Source of the DNA: a virus
Taxonomy: Duplodnaviria > Caudoviricetes
Virus record (IMG/VR): IMGVR_UViG_3300050334_000106
Location: 1-64,000 of that record
Strand: one strand, 5' to 3'
DNA: 64,000 bases
The position numbers and the translations under genes were made by a program. Under the pieces are notes generated by a model. The model was not told the DNA's origin. It worked only from the letters and a program-made list of their open reading frames with translations, and did no database searches. Positions 1,272 to 58,293 of the stretch are shown here, piece after piece (position 1 is the stretch's first letter; every line of letters begins with the position of its first letter).

Positions 1272-1859
1272 TTATTCTGTTATTCCCTTTCTCTTTTTAA
1301 TCTTTCCCTGCAACTCATCCATGACCACATGAGTATAAACCATGGTTGTATTTAAACTGCTATGCCCAGCCAGCTCCTGAACCTCTCGGATATTTGCGGT
1401 ACCTTCTCTCAACACTTCGGTTAAAAATGTATGTCTGAGCTTATGAGGGCTGACAGGCTTTTTTATAGCACCATCCTGGATAAACACGCCGGCTTTTTCA
1501 GAGATTCTGTAGCAGACTTCCCGGATATATCGTTGCATCAGTTGCCCGCCTTCCAAAGTGCAAAATACAAAGTGACTCTCTGGCCGGACAGCAAGCCAAA
1601 CCTTTAATGATTTTTCTATGTCTTCATCCATAGGCACATACCGGTCCTTCTTTCCTTTTCCCTGTTGAACGTAAATAAGCCCCGTTTCAAAATTACAGTC
1701 TGATAAACCCAGATTACATACCTCTGATACTCGCAGGCCAGCACGGTACATCATAATCACAATAGCATAGTTCCGGATCCCGGTTGGACAGCTTGTGTTG
1801 ATCTGAGCCAGCATTTTTTTAACAGACTTTTGGTCAATAATCTTTGGCAATTTAAGCAT
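1272..1859 (-). CDS. Tyrosine recombinase, catalytic domain only (195 aa; XerD/FimB-like size)
   Basis: GLRVSE, GKGKKDR, HKLRH and LAGHSSLNTTMVYTH give the full R-K-H-R-H-Y set; no N-terminal arm-binding domain. Confidence 0.95.
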   Translation of the reverse strand: MLKLPKIIDQKSVKKMLAQINTSCPTGIRNYAIVIMMYRAGLRVSEVCNLGLSDCNFETGLIYVQQGKGKKDRYVPMDEDIEKSLKVWLAVRPESHFVFCTLEGGQLMQRYIREVCYRISEKAGVFIQDGAIKKPVSPHKLRHTFLTEVLREGTANIREVQELAGHSSLNTTMVYTHVVMDELQGKIKKRKGITE

Positions 1860-1860
1860 G

Positions 1861-2061
1861 CTACCCCACTCTCCCTTCTAAAATTCTCCCTGCCTTTTCC
1901 TCGGCATCTTCTTCAAACATGATATCCATCAAGTCATACATTTTACGGTCAAGAAGCCTACAGAGTTCAGTTTTCTTTTTGTTGGATACATTTATATGTC
2001 CGTCACTGATAATCCTGTATAAAGCCACAACAGCATAACCTTGAGCCTGAGCATTTGTCAT
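1861..2061 (-). CDS. Hypothetical protein (likely start MTNAQAQGY)
   Basis: RBS GAAAGGA before ATG 2061; the longer ORF-track start runs through a repeat array. Confidence 0.6.
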   Translation of the reverse strand: MTNAQAQGYAVVALYRIISDGHINVSNKKKTELCRLLDRKMYDLMDIMFEEDAEEKAGRILEGRVG

Positions 2062-2091
2062 AAAGTCACATCCTTTCAATATTCCATTATT

Positions 2092-2300
2092 TGTAACACC
2101 GCAAATCGCCGAACTTCGCCGAACAACACCGAGAAACACCGACGATCACCGCGTTTTACCGAAAAACACCGTTAACCTACATATATAATATATACTATAT
2201 TTAAATATAGTAGGTTAGGAGAAGGAGAAGGTATTAGCCTTAGTAATATATATAATAAAATAAATATAAAAACTTAAATATGTGTAGTACGCGCGCGAGG
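2092..2300 (+). repeat. Origin-like element: eight 10-bp-phased NNNNNYRCCG repeats, an AT-rich tract with a 20-bp palindrome, and ACGCGCGCGAGG
   Basis: Units at 2092-2171 match the initiator-gene iterons (57911-57980) unit by unit; TACTATATTTAAATATAGTA at 2193-2212. Confidence 0.75.
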
Positions 2301-2429
2301 AATTAATATTTACTTGTCATTAAAATTTTATATAAAAAGGGCGCTTTATTATCCCTTGAAGCGACGGGTATCCCGCTACCATCCGGTTTATATCCGGGGT
2401 GGTTTCGGCCGGTTCCCTTCCGGCTCTCA

Positions 2430-2591
2430 TCAGGCGGGTATTATGTTTCCGGTAAAGTACTTCTGAGATTCATCCATCTCTAAAATAACCTCTTCTCCAG
2501 TCTCATCACAAAACGCTGTGATACCTAAATTACCTAAATCTTCAGGATAATAGCTGTAATGCAATCCATTGATTTCCTTTGTCTGAAACAT
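2430..2591 (-). CDS. Hypothetical protein (likely start MFQTKEING)
   Basis: Open frame with a plausible RBS in the leftward operon. Confidence 0.55.
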   Translation of the reverse strand: MFQTKEINGLHYSYYPEDLGNLGITAFCDETGEEVILEMDESQKYFTGNIIPA

Positions 2592-2638
2592 AATTAATTC
2601 TCTCTTTCTGCCAGGATTAACCAGGCCATTCAGTAACA

Positions 2639-3070
2639 TTATCGAATAAAAACTTCTGTTAAAATCGTTCCGCCACCAGATTGAAGACAACCAAGGAAGC
2701 AATGTGGCTTGCCATCAATCATAATTTTGTAATCGTCACAAATTGTTTGCCATTGCTTGCGGGTTACAACAGGATTATTACGAAGGATAGCTTCAAGCTC
2801 GTTGATTTCAGATGGTTTAATATTGCATCCATACGACCGCTGTAAGCGTTCTGCTATGATATGGTGGTTTGAAATCTTACTGCTTGTAAAATGTGAACAT
2901 CCGTCTCCACTTTTACTCTCAACAGCGATCACGTTGCAGATATACATAGGGTCACAAATTCCATTGATGTCAAATCGAATACAAACATTTTCAGATGTCT
3001 TCCTTATGTTTTCAGGTACTTCGTGGCCATCAAAGGCTTTTTGAAAATCAATCATAATAATATCCTCCAT
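2639..3070 (-). CDS. Hypothetical phage protein
   Basis: 143-aa ORF with GGAGG RBS, in operon. Confidence 0.7.
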   Translation of the reverse strand: MEDIIMIDFQKAFDGHEVPENIRKTSENVCIRFDINGICDPMYICNVIAVESKSGDGCSHFTSSKISNHHIIAERLQRSYGCNIKPSEINELEAILRNNPVVTRKQWQTICDDYKIMIDGKPHCFLGCLQSGGGTILTEVFIR

Positions 3071-3108
3071 CTACCGGATCCGGGAATTAAAATAGTTGTT
3101 AATAAACC

Positions 3109-3759
3109 CTAATTCATTTCATAGTCAACCCAGTCGACAACCTTGTTTACCATCTCTTTAAAATTGCAATCAAATGGATACTTTAAGCTATCAAATTCAG
3201 TTTCGTAGTCACTAGCCTGCAAGACACCCAGGAAAGCATCTTTTAAGGCAAGTAATGCACTTTTCATTTCTTCATCAGATTCCTCTAAATCATCTCCACC
3301 GTATTTTGATGTAGGATGTTCAATAGCCTTGCGGATAGAGGCCAACTCTATTATTGCTGTTTCGTCCGGGCAAACACTGTACAGATCTCCATCACGCGTA
3401 ATGTTCAGCGTAATTTCTCGCTGCTGCTCTTGATTATCAACACACAGAGCTATTGCTACAGGATATTTACCGCTGTCATCTACAACCGGTATTTCTCGGA
3501 CACGCCAACCGTCAAATGATAAGCCTTCATCCTCAAAATAATGCTTTGCGATTGATGTAGCTGCATCTGCGGCCTGTAAGCCATCGCAGGATGCGCTATA
3601 ATTGGTCCTATTAATGATTTCATCAACATACTTTTTCATCATTGCCTGTGCCTCCTTTATATTCCGTTTCGGCCTCATTTCAGAGACCATCATCAGTGCG
3701 GTATCCGCAGACGGTCGGGAGTTTTTAGCTCCCGGGTAAAGGTTAATTAACTGGCACAT
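3109..3759 (-). CDS. Hypothetical acidic phage protein
   Basis: 216-aa ORF overlapping the upstream stop. Confidence 0.7.
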   Translation of the reverse strand: MCQLINLYPGAKNSRPSADTALMMVSEMRPKRNIKEAQAMMKKYVDEIINRTNYSASCDGLQAADAATSIAKHYFEDEGLSFDGWRVREIPVVDDSGKYPVAIALCVDNQEQQREITLNITRDGDLYSVCPDETAIIELASIRKAIEHPTSKYGGDDLEESDEEMKSALLALKDAFLGVLQASDYETEFDSLKYPFDCNFKEMVNKVVDWVDYEMN

Positions 3760-4816: not shown

Positions 4817-5010
4817 TTTACACTTTCAAGCCCTTATCCTGCCTGATTTATAGCCAAACACAATATATTGTGGTATGCCTCTTCAAAATGATGTGTTTTG
4901 GTCCCATTTTTGCGGGATTTTTGGACCCCTGGGGGGGAGGGTCGGACTTTGGGCGGGAGAGTTACCCCTCTCAAAAATATCCCCTTCCTATAAGCCGTTC
5001 AAGCCCGTAT
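4319..5010. other. Non-coding region with repeated TCAAG(C/G)(C/G)Y motifs and a GC-rich patch; candidate packaging (cos/pac) or control region
   Basis: Motif at 4322, 4493, 4620, 4826 and 4999; GGACCCCTGGGGGGGAGGGTC at about 4923-4943; lies upstream of the packaging genes. Confidence 0.35.
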
Positions 5011-5134: not shown

Positions 5135-5207
5135 CGATACAAATGTGAGTCAAATGTGATACAGATATGAGTCATTCATGAGTCAATATTGATTCAAACA
5201 TGAGTCA
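5135..5207 (+). repeat. Seven 11-bp-phased iteron-like repeats, core TGAKWCA
   Basis: CGATACA 5135, TGAGTCA 5146, TGATACA 5157, TGAGTCA 5168, TGAGTCA 5179, TGATTCA 5190, TGAGTCA 5201. Confidence 0.9.
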
Positions 5208-5463
5208 CACAAAACGCAAGTCCTATGTTATAATTTATAATAGCGGAGCAAGTAGGAATTGGAAGGCACTGGTGAAGAACTGGGGCCTTTACTATTTGGA
5301 TTTGATGCGAGATGTATATAACTGCTATATAGTATCTCTCATCAAAACAAGCCGATCAAAAGTCTTGTATGCACTGGAAATAAAGTGTTATGCGGACTTT
5401 TTTCTTTTACAAAAAAACTGTTCAAAATGGCCCATTTTTTACAAAAAAATTGTAGGTGGTGTT

Positions 5464-6009
5464 ATGGCCCAGAAAGCGAAAAAGGTTACCAGATACATTA
5501 ACTCTGAAACCGGCGAATTCTCTGAGAGATTTAAATGGGTTGATATGCAATTTGATGATGACGGCTACCTTTTTTGGAACCGCAAATCAAATGTCAAGAC
5601 TTTTATAGAGGTTCCTCTCCCTGTGGAATTAACCTGGGCAGAAAAAGGTCGGATTCACGAGCTGAAACATTACATTTTGAAAGATAACCAATTTCTTGTA
5701 TACCGAAGCGGTAATACTATAAAACCAATAACAGCCACTGAAATGAGTAAGATTCTTGGAATGAGTGAACGTCAATGTAGATCTTTGGTTAAAAAAATGA
5801 AGGACCTTAAAATCATAAAAGAAATATCCTTTGATGGGTTTGTGTACTTTGTTTTCAATCCAATGTACGGTTTCAAAGAAAAGCGGCTTAGCCTCAATGT
5901 ATACCTGTTTTTTCAGGATGAGCTGCGGAAGATACTCCCTGAATGGGTGATAAAAAAATTCTCTGAATCAGCCATTGAGTTGCGTCCCAAATTTGAAATT
6001 ATTAAATGA
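5464..6009 (+). CDS. Winged-HTH protein, RepL-like (Firmicutes plasmid replication protein type)
   Basis: Start MAQKAKK after GGTGG; INSETGE, HTH ATEMSKILGMSERQCRSLVKKM and YFVFNPMY resemble RepL; the ORF-track N-terminal extension is probably not translated. Confidence 0.6.
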   Translation: MAQKAKKVTRYINSETGEFSERFKWVDMQFDDDGYLFWNRKSNVKTFIEVPLPVELTWAEKGRIHELKHYILKDNQFLVYRSGNTIKPITATEMSKILGMSERQCRSLVKKMKDLKIIKEISFDGFVYFVFNPMYGFKEKRLSLNVYLFFQDELRKILPEWVIKKFSESAIELRPKFEIIK

Positions 6010-51957: not shown

Positions 51958-53061
51958 CTATTTTGTTCTAACCGGAAGAATCATGTATCTGTAGTTATCG
52001 CATTCAGTTGGCATTATGAAGGCCGGTGCCAGTTCTCCAGAAAATCCTAGAGTAGTATTTTTATCTGATACATGTTTCAGGCAGGTTATAAATCTACGCG
52101 GGTCAAGACCAATTTTGATATCTTCTCCAGCAACATCACAGAATATTTCTTCATCAAATGAGCCTTTTTCACTCTTCATTGTCAATCTTATTGAATCAGC
52201 CTTTGATATTATCTTGAGTGGTTCACTTACGGTTCCCTTTGGGCCAGTATCAAAAACCAACAGTGCTCTTTCCAATGATTGAGTAAGTTCTCTTGTATTA
52301 ACACAAACCTGTGTTTTGAGATCCAAAGGTGCATATCGTTTATAATTCATATATGTACCTTCGACCACTCTTACAGTTACTCTCGTGTTATCAAAAGATA
52401 TTAGTGCCAAACTGTCTGATAGATCTATGTTCAATGTTCCATCACCAGTTATTGACTTTGTAACATTTTCAAGGGACTTGCCACACAGAAGTATGCTGGC
52501 ATTTGAAGAATCAATTTTAAACTTTTGCCAAGCTACCATATACCCGTCAATTGCCACAACATCCGCACATCCGTTTTCAATATTGATTTTTATTCCGGTA
52601 AGTGTTGGTTTTTCTTCGCCTTCATATACCGCGAATGCTACACCATTTATGGCTTCAACAAAGAGCTCCTTGTTAACTTCGAAACTGATTTTGCTTGTTA
52701 TATCCGGGACCTTTGGATACTCAGCTTCTATAACTGCCATTTTCATAACAGCTTTACCAGCTTCCAAGTTCATTTTTTTATCTTTAACAAAAATGTCTAT
52801 CTCCTCGTCAGGCATTTTTCGAACAACATCACAAACCATCTTTGCATTTACTATGGCACTTCCGGAGCTTATTACCTCACACTCTATCGTGTGCTCTATT
52901 GTCGATTCCAAGTTATTTTTTATAAGCTTAAGCTTCCCTTCCTGGGCTTCAAACAATATGCATTCTAGTATTGGCTGTATTACTTTCCCTGCTGTCGGCA
53001 CCGCTTTTATCACCGTATCCAAAGCTTGAACAAGTACGTTTTTATCAATTGCGATCTTCAT
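51958..53061 (-). CDS. dnaN: DNA polymerase III beta sliding clamp homolog
   Basis: ILECILF, YPKVP, LTGI, VAIDG, EGTYMNY and YMILPVR; about 367 aa. Confidence 0.9.
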   Translation of the reverse strand: MKIAIDKNVLVQALDTVIKAVPTAGKVIQPILECILFEAQEGKLKLIKNNLESTIEHTIECEVISSGSAIVNAKMVCDVVRKMPDEEIDIFVKDKKMNLEAGKAVMKMAVIEAEYPKVPDITSKISFEVNKELFVEAINGVAFAVYEGEEKPTLTGIKINIENGCADVVAIDGYMVAWQKFKIDSSNASILLCGKSLENVTKSITGDGTLNIDLSDSLALISFDNTRVTVRVVEGTYMNYKRYAPLDLKTQVCVNTRELTQSLERALLVFDTGPKGTVSEPLKIISKADSIRLTMKSEKGSFDEEIFCDVAGEDIKIGLDPRRFITCLKHVSDKNTTLGFSGELAPAFIMPTECDNYRYMILPVRTK

Positions 53062-55147
53062 CCCCAAAATACCTCCTGACCTCATCTATTTTACCGCTTA
53101 CCCATATTTTCAGATTCGAGAACCCCCAATGGACATCGCCCAGCAGATTCGGCATAAGCGTCTCTAATAACGCATTTCCAATCGCTGTCGCTGTCTGAAC
53201 CGGTACCGCATTGCCGATATACTCCCGGGCTTTTCCGTCACTACAATCTATCAATTCAAATGGCGTTCCATCCTTCATAGTTCTTGGGAAGCCCTGTAAC
53301 ATTGCCATCTCATATGTGGTGATAGGTCTATGCCAAGTGCCATCTACCGCAATAATTATGTAGATACCTCTGTCATCTGGTCCCGGGATTCTCGGGTCTG
53401 CCACCGCAGCTGCTCCTGCATGAATATCTCCACTTGCTGTTACCGTCTTAGCAGGTTCATCCCAATCCATCACACCGTAGTTTCCAGCTCCTGACCATTT
53501 CCGAGGATCTGCCACTGCTGCCACTGAATTTGAACTGCTCACACTCATATTCCCGGTTATTGTGTTTATTGGTTTATTCCAATCAGCAATTCCATATAAC
53601 CCGGGCCGTGATTCACAATGTATGCGCTTGTCTGCCACGCAAAGTGCTCCTGACTGAACATCAGTTTGACCTATGACTGTACTTGAAGGTTCCTCCCATG
53701 GTATAACCCTGTACGTTCCCGGATATCGCCCATCTCGTTTATTTAACCTAGGGTCAGCTACTACCGTTCCTCCATTGGTTGGCCCTGTTCCGGACGTGAT
53801 TGTCCCAGCGGGATTGTCCCAATCGGTTACTCTAAAACAATGATTAAAGTGAGGAGATTTATCTATTCTTGGATCTGCCACAGATACCGCGCCATTGGTC
53901 GGACCATTTCCACCTGTGATAGTTGGCCCCGGCTCATTCCAATCAGCCACTTTGCAAAGGTTAGCATATTTCGGTATCTTCGTGTCTACGCTTTCAGGTT
54001 CTAAATAATCATCATCTTCAATCTCACCTAATAAATCCGTACCGAAGCTTTCAGCAAATCTCTGAATATCCGGGTCTGCATATATGGGAGCTCCGCTTCC
54101 CAATCGACTTCCTGTTACCGTCGGGCTCGGTTCATCCGCAGATACAACTCTGTATTTATTGCCATAACCCTGAACGAACTCAATACGCGGGTCGGCGACT
54201 GCTGAAACTCCTGTGCTCTGTCCAACTCCCTTTGTAGAAGATGTAACCGCATTTGAAGGTTCATCCCAGGGAACAATTCTCCAAGCACCTTTCCATTGCT
54301 CTCTACCGAAATTCTCAAGTGCTCTCCAGTCTTTCCCGGCTGGTATAAGAGCCAGTCTTTCCCATGTTCTCCATGCAAGATTTGGAATCCGGTGCATTTT
54401 GCCACCTCTAGCCGTGTCACCAGGCATTGGCAACGGACCTAAAATGTCACCGATAGACTTAAGCGGTAATTCTGGAGGTTCAAACACAAAGTCCGGAACC
54501 TTCTCAACAAATCTTGAGATATGTAGATATCTTACTCTGTGCTGTCCAAGTCCTCCCCATTTTCCACAATCATATAAGGCTTCATGAAAAACATATCCTC
54601 GAGGTGATAACATTGTTCTTATGCCCTTAAGTGTCTTGTCTCCCCTGCCTTTATCGCGTATGCCAGGGACATTTTCCATCAGTAAAATAGGAGGTAAATC
54701 GTCAAACCAGGCTTCAAGTACAAGCTCATATATTCTTAATGGTAATTCGTTTAACGCCTGATACTTTGGCAACTCTGCCGTTTTTTTTGGCAATAGTCGG
54801 CTATTCCCTTTGCACGGCGGGCTCATGACAACCACATCAGGCCGTTTATTGATAAGTTCTCTCAGTTTCTTAGGAGTTAATTCTTCCCACTCAGGTCCTG
54901 GCTCATGGCCGTAGAACATAATGTATTGCCTTCTGGTAAAAAGGTCTAAGCAGATAGCTTTATTGCCTGTTATTCTCTCAAAGTTTTTGCAGGCTACTGG
55001 GTCAACATCTATTCCAACAACTGTTTTAAATCTGCCTGTAATGCCTTTATATTCATGCCTGGATTGTTCAAGTCCCAAATCCTGGCCTCCCACTCCACAG
55101 CAGAAACAAGCAACATATAATTCCATTTCATTATTTGTTAAATTCAC
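53045..55147 (-). CDS. C5-cytosine DNA methyltransferase with internal tandem repeats
   Basis: FCCGVGG, SPPCKG, LMENVPG, QHRVR and IGNAVP; about seven ADPR-ending repeats. Confidence 0.9.
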   Translation of the reverse strand: MNLTNNEMELYVACFCCGVGGQDLGLEQSRHEYKGITGRFKTVVGIDVDPVACKNFERITGNKAICLDLFTRRQYIMFYGHEPGPEWEELTPKKLRELINKRPDVVVMSPPCKGNSRLLPKKTAELPKYQALNELPLRIYELVLEAWFDDLPPILLMENVPGIRDKGRGDKTLKGIRTMLSPRGYVFHEALYDCGKWGGLGQHRVRYLHISRFVEKVPDFVFEPPELPLKSIGDILGPLPMPGDTARGGKMHRIPNLAWRTWERLALIPAGKDWRALENFGREQWKGAWRIVPWDEPSNAVTSSTKGVGQSTGVSAVADPRIEFVQGYGNKYRVVSADEPSPTVTGSRLGSGAPIYADPDIQRFAESFGTDLLGEIEDDDYLEPESVDTKIPKYANLCKVADWNEPGPTITGGNGPTNGAVSVADPRIDKSPHFNHCFRVTDWDNPAGTITSGTGPTNGGTVVADPRLNKRDGRYPGTYRVIPWEEPSSTVIGQTDVQSGALCVADKRIHCESRPGLYGIADWNKPINTITGNMSVSSSNSVAAVADPRKWSGAGNYGVMDWDEPAKTVTASGDIHAGAAAVADPRIPGPDDRGIYIIIAVDGTWHRPITTYEMAMLQGFPRTMKDGTPFELIDCSDGKAREYIGNAVPVQTATAIGNALLETLMPNLLGDVHWGFSNLKIWVSGKIDEVRRYFGDEDRN

Positions 55148-56815: not shown

Positions 56816-57007
56816 TCAAAATGGAAGCTCTTCTCCGTTGTCGTCGTAATATTTACCGGTTTCCGGCTCCCAGGCATCACCTTGTTGTTCGCCGGTAGCA
56901 GTTCTTCCAAGTAATCTATTCAAAACCGCCCTTGGGATACACCGATCAATGATTTCCCTGTATTGCTCATAATAATCAAGATCAATCATCGGCATCTTGC
57001 TCGTCAC
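56816..57007 (-). CDS. Hypothetical protein with an acidic ELPF tail
   Basis: In-operon ORF. Confidence 0.55.
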   Translation of the reverse strand: MTSKMPMIDLDYYEQYREIIDRCIPRAVLNRLLGRTATGEQQGDAWEPETGKYYDDNGEELPF

Positions 57008-57536
57008 CTTCTTTAAGCATCGTTTTTGATAATCCAGAAATGAGCTTTTTTGATGAATCCGGTAGCATGGAGTATTCTTTTATTTGCTGAACCCTTGCAG
57101 AATAACTGCGCATGAAATTGGACTGAATGACTGTTTCAAGTTGCTTTGTTTCAAGGAGAGCCCATTCTCGGAGCTGCCCCGGACTACCGACAATCTTTTG
57201 AAGAACGGCAGGGAGGTTATTGAAATTTTCGGTTGCATTGTAATATGAGATTGCATTTTTAATCTTTGCCCAAGCCTCAAATTCAGTAGGCGCTGGAAGT
57301 TGAGTTAGTTGAGCAACTTTCTTTTTTATATCAGCCGGAACAGGAGGAAATTCAAGCGTGCAAATTACTGCATGGACTGCCTCGGTAACAATTTTTGCGT
57401 TGTCATCTTTAAACAATACTGCCCATAAATTCAATGCAGCCTGCTTTTCATCTGAGGTCTTATTTGCATAAAACCTCGGGTATGCAGTCTCAAGAATCAT
57501 CATTATAGTCGCTGTTTCCTTTTTGGTCATGTTCAT
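56982..57536 (-). CDS. Replicative helicase loader/inhibitor (G39P-like)
   Basis: MTKKETATIMMILETAYP...WAVLFKD...FPPVPADI; follows the initiator. Confidence 0.8.
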   Translation of the reverse strand: MNMTKKETATIMMILETAYPRFYANKTSDEKQAALNLWAVLFKDDNAKIVTEAVHAVICTLEFPPVPADIKKKVAQLTQLPAPTEFEAWAKIKNAISYYNATENFNNLPAVLQKIVGSPGQLREWALLETKQLETVIQSNFMRSYSARVQQIKEYSMLPDSSKKLISGLSKTMLKEGDEQDADD

Positions 57537-58293
57537 TAGCCTCCTCTACTAAATCTACAAAACTCACATTCTTACCCTGTTTTTGCTTTGGTGCATCTCT
57601 GCCCTTTTTGTTTCCGCGTTCTACCTTCTTTGCTCGATACTGTTCAAGTGTCTTAACATTCTGGGATATGGAATTATCAAGCACCTTTTTAGCCCAGTTC
57701 CATTTATTATCCATGCCAAGGCTGTCTTTAAGTACCTCTATAATCATTTCAGGCTCTAATCCATCAATATCCATAGCCTGAGATATCGTCTCAGCTTGAA
57801 AAGGAGTAATAAGTCCAATGTTCTGGTTAAAAAATCTAAATACTTCGCCCTCGCGCGCGCGTTCTTCCTCTTCTTCTATAAGGTTAGGTATAGGAGAAGG
57901 TGAAGGATAACGGTGTTCTTCGGTACTTTGCGGTGATTGCCGGTGTTGCTCGGTGTTTTGCGGCGAAATGCGGCGCTTTTTTTCAGGGATGTAAGTCTGA
58001 TATTTATAGAAGGAACTCGGTGGGAAACTCAACATTTTGCCATCAGACTTAACCAGCCCAAGCTTTATCATCCCATCAACAGCCCATTGGATATCTTCCT
58101 CTGCTTTATCTGTGCGCGCTGGCATAACTTTGTTTTTAATCTCAAATGGATCTGCAGTTATCAGGCAGGTATCCTCGGCATGTGGGATCATCCATGTATA
58201 AAGGAGCGCTGCAAAGTCGCCGTATTCAATCGCCAATTTGTTAACAGCTTTATCTATTGAAATCTCAGTTGAAATATATCTGCGTCTTGCCAT
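57490..58293 (-). CDS. Phage replication initiator with a C-terminal DnaD domain
   Basis: MARRRYISTEIS..D, LYTWMIPHAED; repeat-encoded linker; FFNQNIGLITPFQAE...WNWAKKVLDN. Confidence 0.85.
   Translation of the reverse strand: MARRRYISTEISIDKAVNKLAIEYGDFAALLYTWMIPHAEDTCLITADPFEIKNKVMPARTDKAEEDIQWAVDGMIKLGLVKSDGKMLSFPPSSFYKYQTYIPEKKRRISPQNTEQHRQSPQSTEEHRYPSPSPIPNLIEEEEERAREGEVFRFFNQNIGLITPFQAETISQAMDIDGLEPEMIIEVLKDSLGMDNKWNWAKKVLDNSISQNVKTLEQYRAKKVERGNKKGRDAPKQKQGKNVSFVDLVEEANEHDQKGNSDYNDDS
57849..57980 (-). repeat. Intragenic replication origin: seven 10-bp-phased iterons
   Basis: CGGYR at 57911, 57921, 57931, 57941, 57951, 57961 and 57971; lambdoid/SPP1-type origins lie within initiator genes. 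Confidence 0.8.

What the first reader, a model, noticed from the sequence alone, without database searches (positions are those of the whole stretch)
2092..2300. Second, non-coding copy of the replication-origin iterons about 56 kb from the initiator gene
Seen: eight 10-bp-phased units match the initiator's intragenic iterons in order (AAAAACACCG/AAGAACACCG, ACGATCACCG/GCAATCACCG, AGAAACACCG/AGCAACACCG, AACTTCGCCG/CATTTCGCCG). They translate to NNTEKHRRSPRFTEKHR-stop versus QNTEQHRQSPQSTEEHRY. Both loci end in ACGCGCGCG(CG)AGG and both contain an AGGTTAGG..AGAAGG.GAAGG block, which here is inverted relative to the iterons. This copy adds an AT-rich tract with a perfect 20-bp palindrome (2193-2212). 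No initiator ORF surrounds it. Inference: a second origin, an initiator-titration/handcuffing site, or an operator linking initiator levels to the recombinase operon. A decayed rep relic is also possible.
Basis: partly seen in the sequence, partly recalled or inferred. Interest (0 to 1): 0.8.

Follow-up and report, generated by a model that had tools for sequence, protein, structure and literature searches.

The report
Second, non-coding phage replication-origin copy
This clostridial prophage carries a second, non-coding copy of the protein-binding repeats found inside its replication-initiator gene, joined to an easily melted AT-rich stretch; phage SPP1 has the same two-site layout (oriL/oriR), so this is a clear new example of a known design.

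Summary
Eight 10-bp-phased repeats (2092-2171) match, in order, the seven repeats inside the initiator gene (57911-57980). Phased arrays of this motif occur nowhere else in the 74-kb record. The polypurine block and the CGCGCG motif are also unique to the two loci.

The non-coding copy is a discrete ~210-bp module. It consists of the iterons, an AT-rich tract that is the least stable duplex in the whole record, a polypurine block and a GC clamp. Three other elements carry it: two related Ruminiclostridium-type prophages and a Bacillota MAG. Its non-iteron part is 77-94% identical between them, while most flanking DNA does not align. A decaying gene relic is therefore excluded.

The initiator is a DnaD-like two-domain protein whose disordered linker is encoded by the iterons. 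A G39P-family helicase loader follows it.

This is the SPP1 oriL/oriR layout, with about 13 kb between the sites on the circular genome. I read the module as an oriR-type second initiator-binding site. These tools cannot tell whether it fires, arrests forks, or also gates the adjacent recombinase operon.

Earlier notes of this scan report SPP1-like double origins in other genomes. Verdict: new member of a known kind, moderate interest.

The parts
2092..2171 (+). Non-coding iteron array: eight 10-bp units ending in C(A/G)CCG or TACCG
   Evidence: Collinear with the intragenic array. Relatives carry arrays of 8, 10 and 9 units.
2172..2209 (.). TTAACCTAC junction plus the first AT-rich tract. It holds the 20-bp palindrome 2193-2212 and is bracketed by the inverted pair ACCTAC / GTAGGT. 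Candidate DNA-unwinding element.
   Evidence: It is the third least stable 40-bp window of the 74-kb record (start 2172), and the 100- and 120-bp minima start within it or just before it (2181, 2170). Nearly invariant in four elements.
2210..2231 (+). Polypurine block GTAGGTTAGG-AGAAGG-AGAAGG, inverted relative to the iterons when compared with the intragenic copy
   Evidence: GAAGGAGAAGGTAT is invariant in all four non-coding modules.
2232..2288 (.). Second AT-rich tract
   Evidence: It contains the least stable 40-bp window of the record (start 2241). The module between the iterons and the GC clamp is about 80% A+T.
2289..2300 (+). GC clamp ACGCGCGCGAGG, the right boundary of the module
   Evidence: A CGCGCGCG run is kept in all four non-coding modules. 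Homology to relatives ends at 2297-2300.
57490..58293 (-). Initiator / replisome-organizer gene (267 aa): N-terminal winged-helix-like domain, disordered linker, C-terminal DnaD-like domain
   Evidence: Pfam PF07261 and PHROG 186. TIGR01446. PDB 2zc2. AlphaFold model and Foldseek.
57911..57980 (-). Intragenic iteron array: seven 10-bp units encoding linker residues ~105-128
   Evidence: The linker is predicted disordered. Homologous arrays lie at the same place in relatives.
57850..57906 (-). Intragenic counterpart of the block (CCTTCACCTTCTCC on the sense strand) and of the CGCGCGCG motif; encodes PSPSPIPN...ERAREGE
   Evidence: The CGCGCG motif is not kept in the intragenic copies of relatives.
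56982..57536 (-). G39P-family helicase loader gene, overlapping the 3' end of the initiator gene
   Evidence: Pfam PF11417, E 4.7e-14. PHROG 2289 'helicase loader'.
1861..2061 (-). 66-aa ORF of unknown function whose start codon lies 31 bp from the first iteron
   Evidence: Conserved next to the module in G001 and the MAG, and displaced in G002. No family match.
1272..1859 (-). 195-aa Xer-like tyrosine recombinase (catalytic domain only), the last phage gene on this side
   Evidence: PF00589. NCBIfam Xer and invertase models. Homology to G001 and G002 ends at 1275-1279.

Best explanation
The 2092-2300 element is an oriR-type second binding site for the phage's own initiator. It is a non-coding copy of the origin written inside the initiator gene. 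Proposed mechanism (inferred): the winged-helix-like N-terminal domain of the 267-aa DnaD-like initiator binds the 10-bp-phased C(A/G)CCG iterons on one face of the helix, at both arrays. At the non-coding module, the resulting nucleoprotein complex abuts an ~115-bp tract of about 80% A+T, the easiest place in the genome to melt. There the G39P-like loader could deliver a replicative helicase, which must be the host's because the phage encodes none. The module would then act as a firing origin. As proposed for SPP1 oriR, it could instead act as a tightly bound initiator complex that stalls forks coming from the intragenic origin and triggers the recombination-dependent (RecT) switch to concatemer synthesis. 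Because the iterons sit directly upstream of the small-ORF/recombinase operon, initiator occupancy probably also hinders transcription into that operon. Shown here: the repeat anatomy, its uniqueness, its conservation and sharp boundaries, the AT-rich minimum, the protein families, and the parallel with SPP1. Inferred: binding, melting, and firing or fork arrest.
For: - **Uniqueness:** the iteron arrays are unique to the two loci and collinear.
- **Conservation:** the module is present near the same prophage end in G001 (R. hungatei DSM 14427) and G002, and in a Bacillota MAG. In G001 and G002 an intragenic array lies about 50-56 kb away in inverted orientation, as here.
- **Selection:** the non-iteron part is 77-94% identical between elements. 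Flanks score about 50% (unalignable), apart from the left flank shared by G000 and G001 (72%). Iteron cores and phasing are kept while spacers and unit number (8, 8, 10, 9) vary.
- **Unwinding element:** the AT-rich tract is the least stable duplex of the 74-kb record at 40-, 100- and 120-bp windows. The intragenic site has no comparable tract. SPP1 shows the same asymmetry, with oriR less stable than oriL.
- **Proteins:** a DnaD-like initiator whose disordered linker is encoded by the iterons, a G39P-family loader next to it, and RecT upstream.
- **Precedent:** in SPP1, G38P binds oriL (inside gene 38) and the non-coding oriR. Both consist of direct repeats plus an AT-rich unwinding element, about 13 kb apart on the circle (PMC6316719, PMC5737612, PMC3485210; my check of the SPP1 sequence).
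- **Distance:** about 13 kb on the circle here too.
Against: - There are no binding or replication data for this phage.
- In SPP1 itself oriR has not been shown to fire, and its role as a fork barrier is a model.
- A pure unwinding element needs only A+T richness. Here the AT-rich sequence, the ACCTAC/GTAGGT pair and the polypurine block are conserved almost base for base. This points to an additional specific factor, such as a promoter, a host protein or a recombinase, that this explanation does not cover.
- More distant relatives of the initiator show only the intragenic array. Most of those records are fragments, but the complete Paenibacillus phage Mock2 genome has no second copy. The second site is therefore not a general requirement of this initiator family.
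- No DnaA boxes lie at either locus.
Confidence: 0.8

Rival explanations
1. The module is purely a transcriptional operator. The iterons exist so that the initiator represses, or times, the small-ORF / Xer-like recombinase operon, with no role in replication.
For: The first iteron is 31 bp from the small ORF's start codon. The small ORF adjoins the module in G001 and the MAG, and a 194-195-aa recombinase lies just beyond in G000, G001 and G002. The strongly conserved AT-rich sequence could hold a promoter reading across the iterons.
Against: An operator does not need eight to ten phased sites, the least stable AT tract in the genome and a GC clamp. In G002 the small-ORF homologue lies on the other side of the module, and the next ORF starts about 190 bp away. 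In the MAG no recombinase follows. The consensus scan found no promoter on the relevant strand inside the module.
Confidence: 0.1
2. The module is a recombination or inversion site for the neighbouring recombinases (Xer-like tyrosine recombinase; serine recombinase in G001). The inverted pair TTAACCTAC/GTAGGTTAG, or the pair CTACATATAT/ATATGTGTAG, would bound a flippable or resolvable segment. That would explain why the polypurine block is inverted relative to the intragenic copy.
For: The module is flanked by recombinase genes. Inverted repeats bracket the AT-rich core. The 195-aa recombinase also matches FimB/FimE-type invertase models across its full length, though weakly.
Against: All four independent genomes show the same orientation. 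A scan for the flipped junction in metagenomes found only chance hits. The outer inverted repeat is not conserved in G002 or the MAG. The inner segment, 29 bp, is too short to invert. None of this explains the iterons shared with the initiator gene.
Confidence: 0.05
3. The module is a neutral, decaying fragment of a former initiator gene, or a chance duplication of its linker-coding part.
For: The array still reads in frame as a linker-like peptide, 47% identical over 36 residues, with one stop.
Against: No other part of the initiator gene is detectable around it. The 10-bp phasing and all cores are intact. The element is kept in four elements that share only about 74-79% initiator identity. 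It is better conserved than the neighbouring genes: 94% against 72-82% between G000 and G001. It has gained an AT-rich tract that is itself conserved.
Confidence: 0.03

Closest known systems
Bacillus phage SPP1 oriL / oriR with replisome organizer G38P, loader G39P and helicase G40P
   Same: One set of initiator-binding direct repeats lies inside the organizer gene, in its inter-domain linker. A second, similar set lies in a non-coding region about 13 kb away on the circular genome. Each is followed by an A+T-rich stretch, and the non-coding copy is the less stable one (PMC6316719, PMC5737612). A G39P-family loader gene follows the organizer gene, and a RecT-type recombinase lies upstream.
   Different: BLASTP detects no similarity between the initiator and G38P, and the C-terminal domain differs: PF07261 DnaD-like here, PF09524 in G38P. 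The two arrays are inverted here and direct in SPP1. The repeats differ: 10-bp C(A/G)CCG units here, against ~11-bp AAAAGACAC-type boxes in SPP1. The phage encodes no DnaB-type helicase. It is temperate and infects Clostridia. The non-coding module carries an inverted polypurine block and a GC clamp, and it sits beside a small recombinase at the prophage end.
Phage lambda ori inside gene O
   Same: Phased iterons lie in the part of the initiator gene that encodes the flexible linker between the DNA-binding and helicase-recruiting domains, followed by an AT-rich region (established knowledge; here).
   Different: Lambda has a single origin and no distant non-coding copy. The O protein is unrelated in sequence.
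Iteron plasmids with extra iteron arrays (P1 incC/incA, R6K, RK2): titration and handcuffing
   Same: A second array of the same initiator-binding repeats lies away from the origin proper, so titration of the initiator or pairing of arrays is mechanistically possible (established knowledge of those plasmids; inference here).
   Different: In those plasmids the control arrays lack an unwinding element and serve copy-number control of a stably replicating plasmid. Here the extra array has the best unwinding element of the genome, and the element is an integrating phage with no partition genes seen near it.

Membership tests
SPP1-type dual origin (oriL in organizer gene + non-coding oriR) | Initiator-binding direct repeats inside the organizer gene | tested here: met
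   Seven phased units at 57911-57980, in the linker-coding part of the gene. Binding itself was not tested.
SPP1-type dual origin (oriL in organizer gene + non-coding oriR) | A second, similar repeat set in a distant non-coding region of the same genome | tested here: met
   Eight units at 2092-2171, collinear with the intragenic set and found nowhere else in the record.
SPP1-type dual origin (oriL in organizer gene + non-coding oriR) | An A+T-rich unwinding element adjacent to the repeats | tested here: met
   Met clearly at the non-coding site, which is the genome-wide stability minimum. Met only weakly at the intragenic site, where the best window ranks in the top 11%.
SPP1-type dual origin (oriL in organizer gene + non-coding oriR) | The organizer protein binds both sites with similar affinity | not testable with these tools
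   Needs EMSA, footprinting or ChIP.
SPP1 G38P protein family (sequence homology) | Detectable similarity to G38P, and the PF09524 C-terminal domain | tested here: not met
   BLASTP E = 0.35. G38P carries PF09524/TIGR02220, whereas this protein carries PF07261/TIGR01446. However, the N-terminal domain of this protein is found joined to PF09524 in other database proteins (P0059, P0074).
DnaD-like phage replisome organizers | N-terminal winged-helix-type domain plus C-terminal DnaD-like domain | tested here: met
   PF07261 at E 8e-10. PDB 2zc2 by sequence and by fold, TM 0.82. The best full-length fold match is DnaD (9a5c_B). The N-domain resembles winged-helix regulators, with weak E-values but probabilities of 0.85-0.99.
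G39P helicase-loader family | Match to PF11417 above the curated cut-off, and a position directly after the organizer gene | tested here: met
   53.1 bits against a cut-off of 22. The gene overlaps the organizer's 3' end. BLASTP to SPP1 G39P itself finds nothing.
DnaA-dependent origin | DnaA boxes near the unwinding element | tested here: not met
   No TTATCCACA-type site, allowing up to one mismatch, near either locus.

The most novel reading that the evidence does not exclude
The non-coding module may be a portable origin cassette that has become the phage's main lytic origin. The intragenic array would then serve mainly for autoregulation or titration. Initiator occupancy of the module would also gate the terminal Xer-like recombinase operon, tying the start or mode of replication (theta to concatemer) to site-specific recombination at the genome end. 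The co-orientation of the polypurine block at both sites, despite the inverted iterons, would then set a common fork direction.
Probability: 0.12. Interest if true: 0.6.

Novelty: new member of a known kind. Interest (0 to 1): 0.35.

Why it matters
SPP1 has long been the only well-studied phage with one origin inside the organizer gene and a second non-coding one, and the role of its oriR is still only a model. Here the same layout has arisen around a different initiator family, in temperate phages of cellulolytic Clostridia, and selection clearly maintains it. This suggests the two-site design is a recurrent solution rather than a quirk of SPP1. One carrier is a culturable strain, Ruminiclostridium hungatei DSM 14427, in which the question of firing origin versus fork barrier could be tested. 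The base-for-base conservation of the AT-rich core and the inverted polypurine block also hints at an unidentified factor acting at such origins.

Tried and rejected
- **Rfam:** a scan of 1500-3200 found no RNA family.
- **Promoters and terminators:** the consensus scan gave nothing above shuffles.
- **Hairpin or cruciform:** single-strand DNA folding of 2165-2305 is no better than shuffles, z = -0.6, so there is no special cruciform energy.
- **DnaA boxes:** none at either locus.
- **GC skew:** its turning points coincide with changes in gene direction at ~4.8 and ~38 kb, so it says nothing about origin use.
- **Prophage ends:** I found no att direct repeat, and none of the short matches was convincing.
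- **More modules:** the viral, genome and metagenome collections yielded only G001, G002 and one MAG. The metagenome hits were chance matches, and no flipped junction appeared. blastn against GenBank phages found nothing.
- **Second arrays in distant relatives:** ten distant relatives' records showed only intragenic arrays, but all are fragments. The complete Mock2 genome has no second copy.
- **Closer metagenomic relative:** I could not reach the rest of the P0005 contig because the record is not held.
- **Same-genome similarity:** I tested whether same-genome arrays resemble each other more than cross-genome arrays. G000 scores highest, but the data are too few to claim gene conversion.
- **Rejected readings:** a dif-like, pac/cos or integrase arm-site reading does not explain the match to the initiator gene.

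Full report
**Observation**

- Eight 10-bp units ending in C(A/G)CCG (one in TACCG) run from 2092 to 2171 on the + strand.
- Seven such units run from 57911 to 57980 on the - strand, inside the ORF 57490-58293.
- The two arrays align unit by unit. blastn-short of the gene against the full record returns this as the only non-self hit: 83% over 60 bp, E 5e-5.
- A three-unit phased pattern gives 11 matches in the window against 0.02 expected, all at these two places. In the whole 74,199-bp record, phased pairs of cores occur nowhere else.
- GGAGAAGGWGAAGG occurs only at 2218-2231 and 57893-57906, both on the + strand, so the block is inverted relative to the iterons at one locus.
- ACGCGCGCG..AG occurs only at 2289-2299 and 57850-57862.
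- The 20-bp palindrome at 2193-2212 is perfect.
- The initiator protein matches the non-coding site only over its residues 96-131, with a stop inside, so no gene surrounds it.

**What the record is**

The window is the first 64 kb of a 74,199-bp IMG/VR provirus. Genes on the - strand from about 68.9 kb down to 38 kb form the early arm:
- a MazF-antirepressor fusion and a sigma factor;
- RecT, a metallo-hydrolase, the initiator and a G39P-family loader;
- PAPS-reductase-like and methylase genes, a DnaN clamp and helicases of other families.

The + strand from about 5 to 38 kb holds the late genes. A canonical 375-aa integrase sits at 69,049-70,176, followed by host-like genes.

On the left, homology to two related prophages stops at 1275-1279. 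That is exactly the stop codon of a 195-aa Xer-like recombinase. The phage therefore spans roughly 1.2-70.3 kb. On the excised circle the two iteron arrays are about 13 kb apart, not 56 kb.

**The initiator**

- The 267-aa protein carries a DnaD-like C-terminal domain: PF07261, TIGR01446 and PDB 2zc2.
- An AlphaFold model built on 46 homologues has two confident domains, residues 1-105 and 140-230. They are joined by a low-confidence linker at about 108-140.
- Foldseek puts DnaD first for the whole chain and finds DnaD-like domains for the C-terminal part (TM 0.82). For the N-terminal part it finds winged-helix regulators, with weak E-values.
- The iterons encode linker residues ~105-128, as the origins inside lambda O and SPP1 gene 38 do.
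- In relatives down to about 45% N-domain identity, the same linker position holds 10-bp-phased C(A/G)(C/G)CG arrays, usually followed by a (CCTTCT)n tract. The intragenic origin is therefore the family's ancestral feature.
- G000 has seven intragenic units and G001 has four. The difference is 30 bp, or 10 codons, which keeps the reading frame.

**The non-coding module in relatives**

Two related proviruses carry both arrays, in inverted orientation 50-56 kb apart, with the non-coding one 1-2.4 kb from the record end, as here:
- G001, identical to a prophage of Ruminiclostridium hungatei DSM 14427;
- G002, apparently the prophage of genome G019 in the same bacterial family, where the initiator match is the same.

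A Bacillota MAG contig begins with a fourth copy of the module. The rest of that phage runs off the contig.

The four modules share one plan:
- 8, 8, 10 or 9 iterons;
- TTAACCTAC;
- an AT-rich tract with the palindrome;
- GTAGGT(TA/GA)AGG-AGAAGG repeats;
- a second AT-rich tract;
- CGCGCGCG.

From TTAACCTAC to the GC clamp, identity is 77-94%. Flanking DNA scores about 50%, meaning it does not align, except for the left flank shared by G000 and G001 (72%). The iteron arrays are less conserved, because their 5-bp spacers vary while cores and phasing hold.

blastn sets the module boundaries at 2095-2297/2300. In G002 the module lies between the recombinase and the homologue of the small ORF. In G001 a serine recombinase abuts its other side. 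It therefore behaves as a discrete cassette under purifying selection, not as a relic.

The CGCGCG motif is invariant in the non-coding modules. It has been lost through synonymous or other changes in the intragenic copies of G001 and of a closer metagenomic relative. It thus matters at the DNA level only in the non-coding copy.

**Unwinding potential**

I computed nearest-neighbour duplex energies over the whole record.
- The tract 2172-2290 is the least stable segment at 40-, 100- and 120-bp windows, and third at 60 bp.
- The best window near the intragenic array ranks only in the top 11%.
- SPP1 shows the same asymmetry: oriR ranks in the least stable 0.01-0.15% of windows and oriL in 0.35-1.8%.

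**Comparison with SPP1**

Papers state four things (PMC6316719, PMC5737612, PMC3485210):
- G38P binds oriL (inside gene 38) and oriR (non-coding) with similar affinity.
- Both sites consist of direct repeats plus an AT-rich unwinding element.
- The sites lie about 12-13 kb apart on the circle.
- Theta replication starts unidirectionally at oriL, and G38P bound at oriR is proposed to stall the fork and trigger recombination-dependent concatemer synthesis.

I confirmed on the SPP1 sequence that gene 38 nucleotides 395-441 match 4901-4948 at 87.5%, in direct orientation.

The present phage has the same layout, a G39P-family loader and a RecT. It differs in several ways:
- The initiator is not detectably similar to G38P, and its C-terminal domain belongs to a different Pfam family.
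- Its N-terminal domain is nevertheless found fused to the G38P-type C-terminus in other database proteins.
- The arrays are inverted rather than direct.
- The phage has no DnaB-type helicase.

**Mechanism and rivals**

My preferred reading is an oriR-type second initiator-binding site with a true unwinding element (confidence 0.8). Whether it fires, arrests forks or pairs with the intragenic array cannot be decided here.

Because the iterons sit 31-45 bp upstream of the small ORF in three of four elements, initiator binding probably also affects the small-ORF/recombinase operon. I treat this as an added effect rather than the main function, for two reasons: the module has full origin anatomy, and the gene arrangement differs in G002.

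An invertible or recombination-site reading is weak. All four genomes show one orientation, no flipped junction was found, and it would not explain the iterons. The relic reading is rejected.

**Unexplained**

- The AT-rich core, the ACCTAC...GTAGGT pair and the polypurine block are conserved almost base for base, which is more than an unwinding element needs.
- The block is inverted relative to the iterons but co-oriented in the genome at both loci, in all three genomes that hold both.
- There are no DnaA boxes and no significant hairpin energy.

**Verdict**

The arrangement is a new member of a known kind. Earlier notes of this scan report SPP1-like double origins in other genomes. Another note describes the same module in a relative, flanked by two small recombinases, which I confirmed for G001.

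Noticed in passing
window 5143-5208: A second, unrelated repeat array: six or seven TGAGTCA-type cores at exact 11-bp spacing, just upstream of and overlapping the start of ORF 5200-6009. That ORF matches phrog_31110 (unknown function) and has no Pfam match. The array sits at the head of the + strand gene block. It could be an operator or another replicon's iterons.
   Followed up: partly
window 1272-2061 (-): A 195-aa Xer-like tyrosine recombinase with a catalytic domain only; it also matches FimB/E-type invertase models weakly. A 66-aa ORF with no family match precedes it. It is the last phage gene on this side, so together with the canonical 375-aa integrase at the other end (G000 69049-70176), two tyrosine recombinase genes would flank attP on the circle.
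   Followed up: partly
L041:8362-9240 (G001, R. hungatei prophage): In G001 a 292-aa serine recombinase (Resolvase + Recombinase domains) abuts the other side of the origin module. The module there lies between a serine and a tyrosine recombinase gene.
   Followed up: partly
L042:12074-13786 (G002): In G002 the origin module lies between the recombinase (with a different 60-aa ORF) and the homologue of the G000 small ORF, which is there part of a 130-aa ORF. The cassette, or its neighbours, has been rearranged.
   Followed up: partly
L010, L011, L014, L016, L018 (initiator genes of distant relatives): The intragenic iterons are followed by a (CCTTCT)n-type polypyrimidine tract encoding PSPSPS-like linkers in many distant relatives. 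The non-coding module keeps this tract, inverted, without any coding constraint, which suggests a DNA-level role.
   Followed up: partly
proteins P0059, P0074: The N-terminal domain of this initiator is also found joined to the PF09524 C-terminal domain typical of SPP1 G38P. This indicates domain shuffling among phage replisome organizers.
   Followed up: no
window 2340-2430: A GC-rich stretch with two CCGG-N-CCGG hairpins lies between the origin module and the stop of ORF 2430-2702 (-). It has no Rfam match and is not conserved in G001 or G002. It may be a terminator region.
   Followed up: partly
window 51958-53085 (-); whole record: The phage encodes its own DnaN sliding clamp but no DnaB-type helicase, although it has a G39P-family helicase loader. 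The loader presumably acts on the host helicase.
   Followed up: partly
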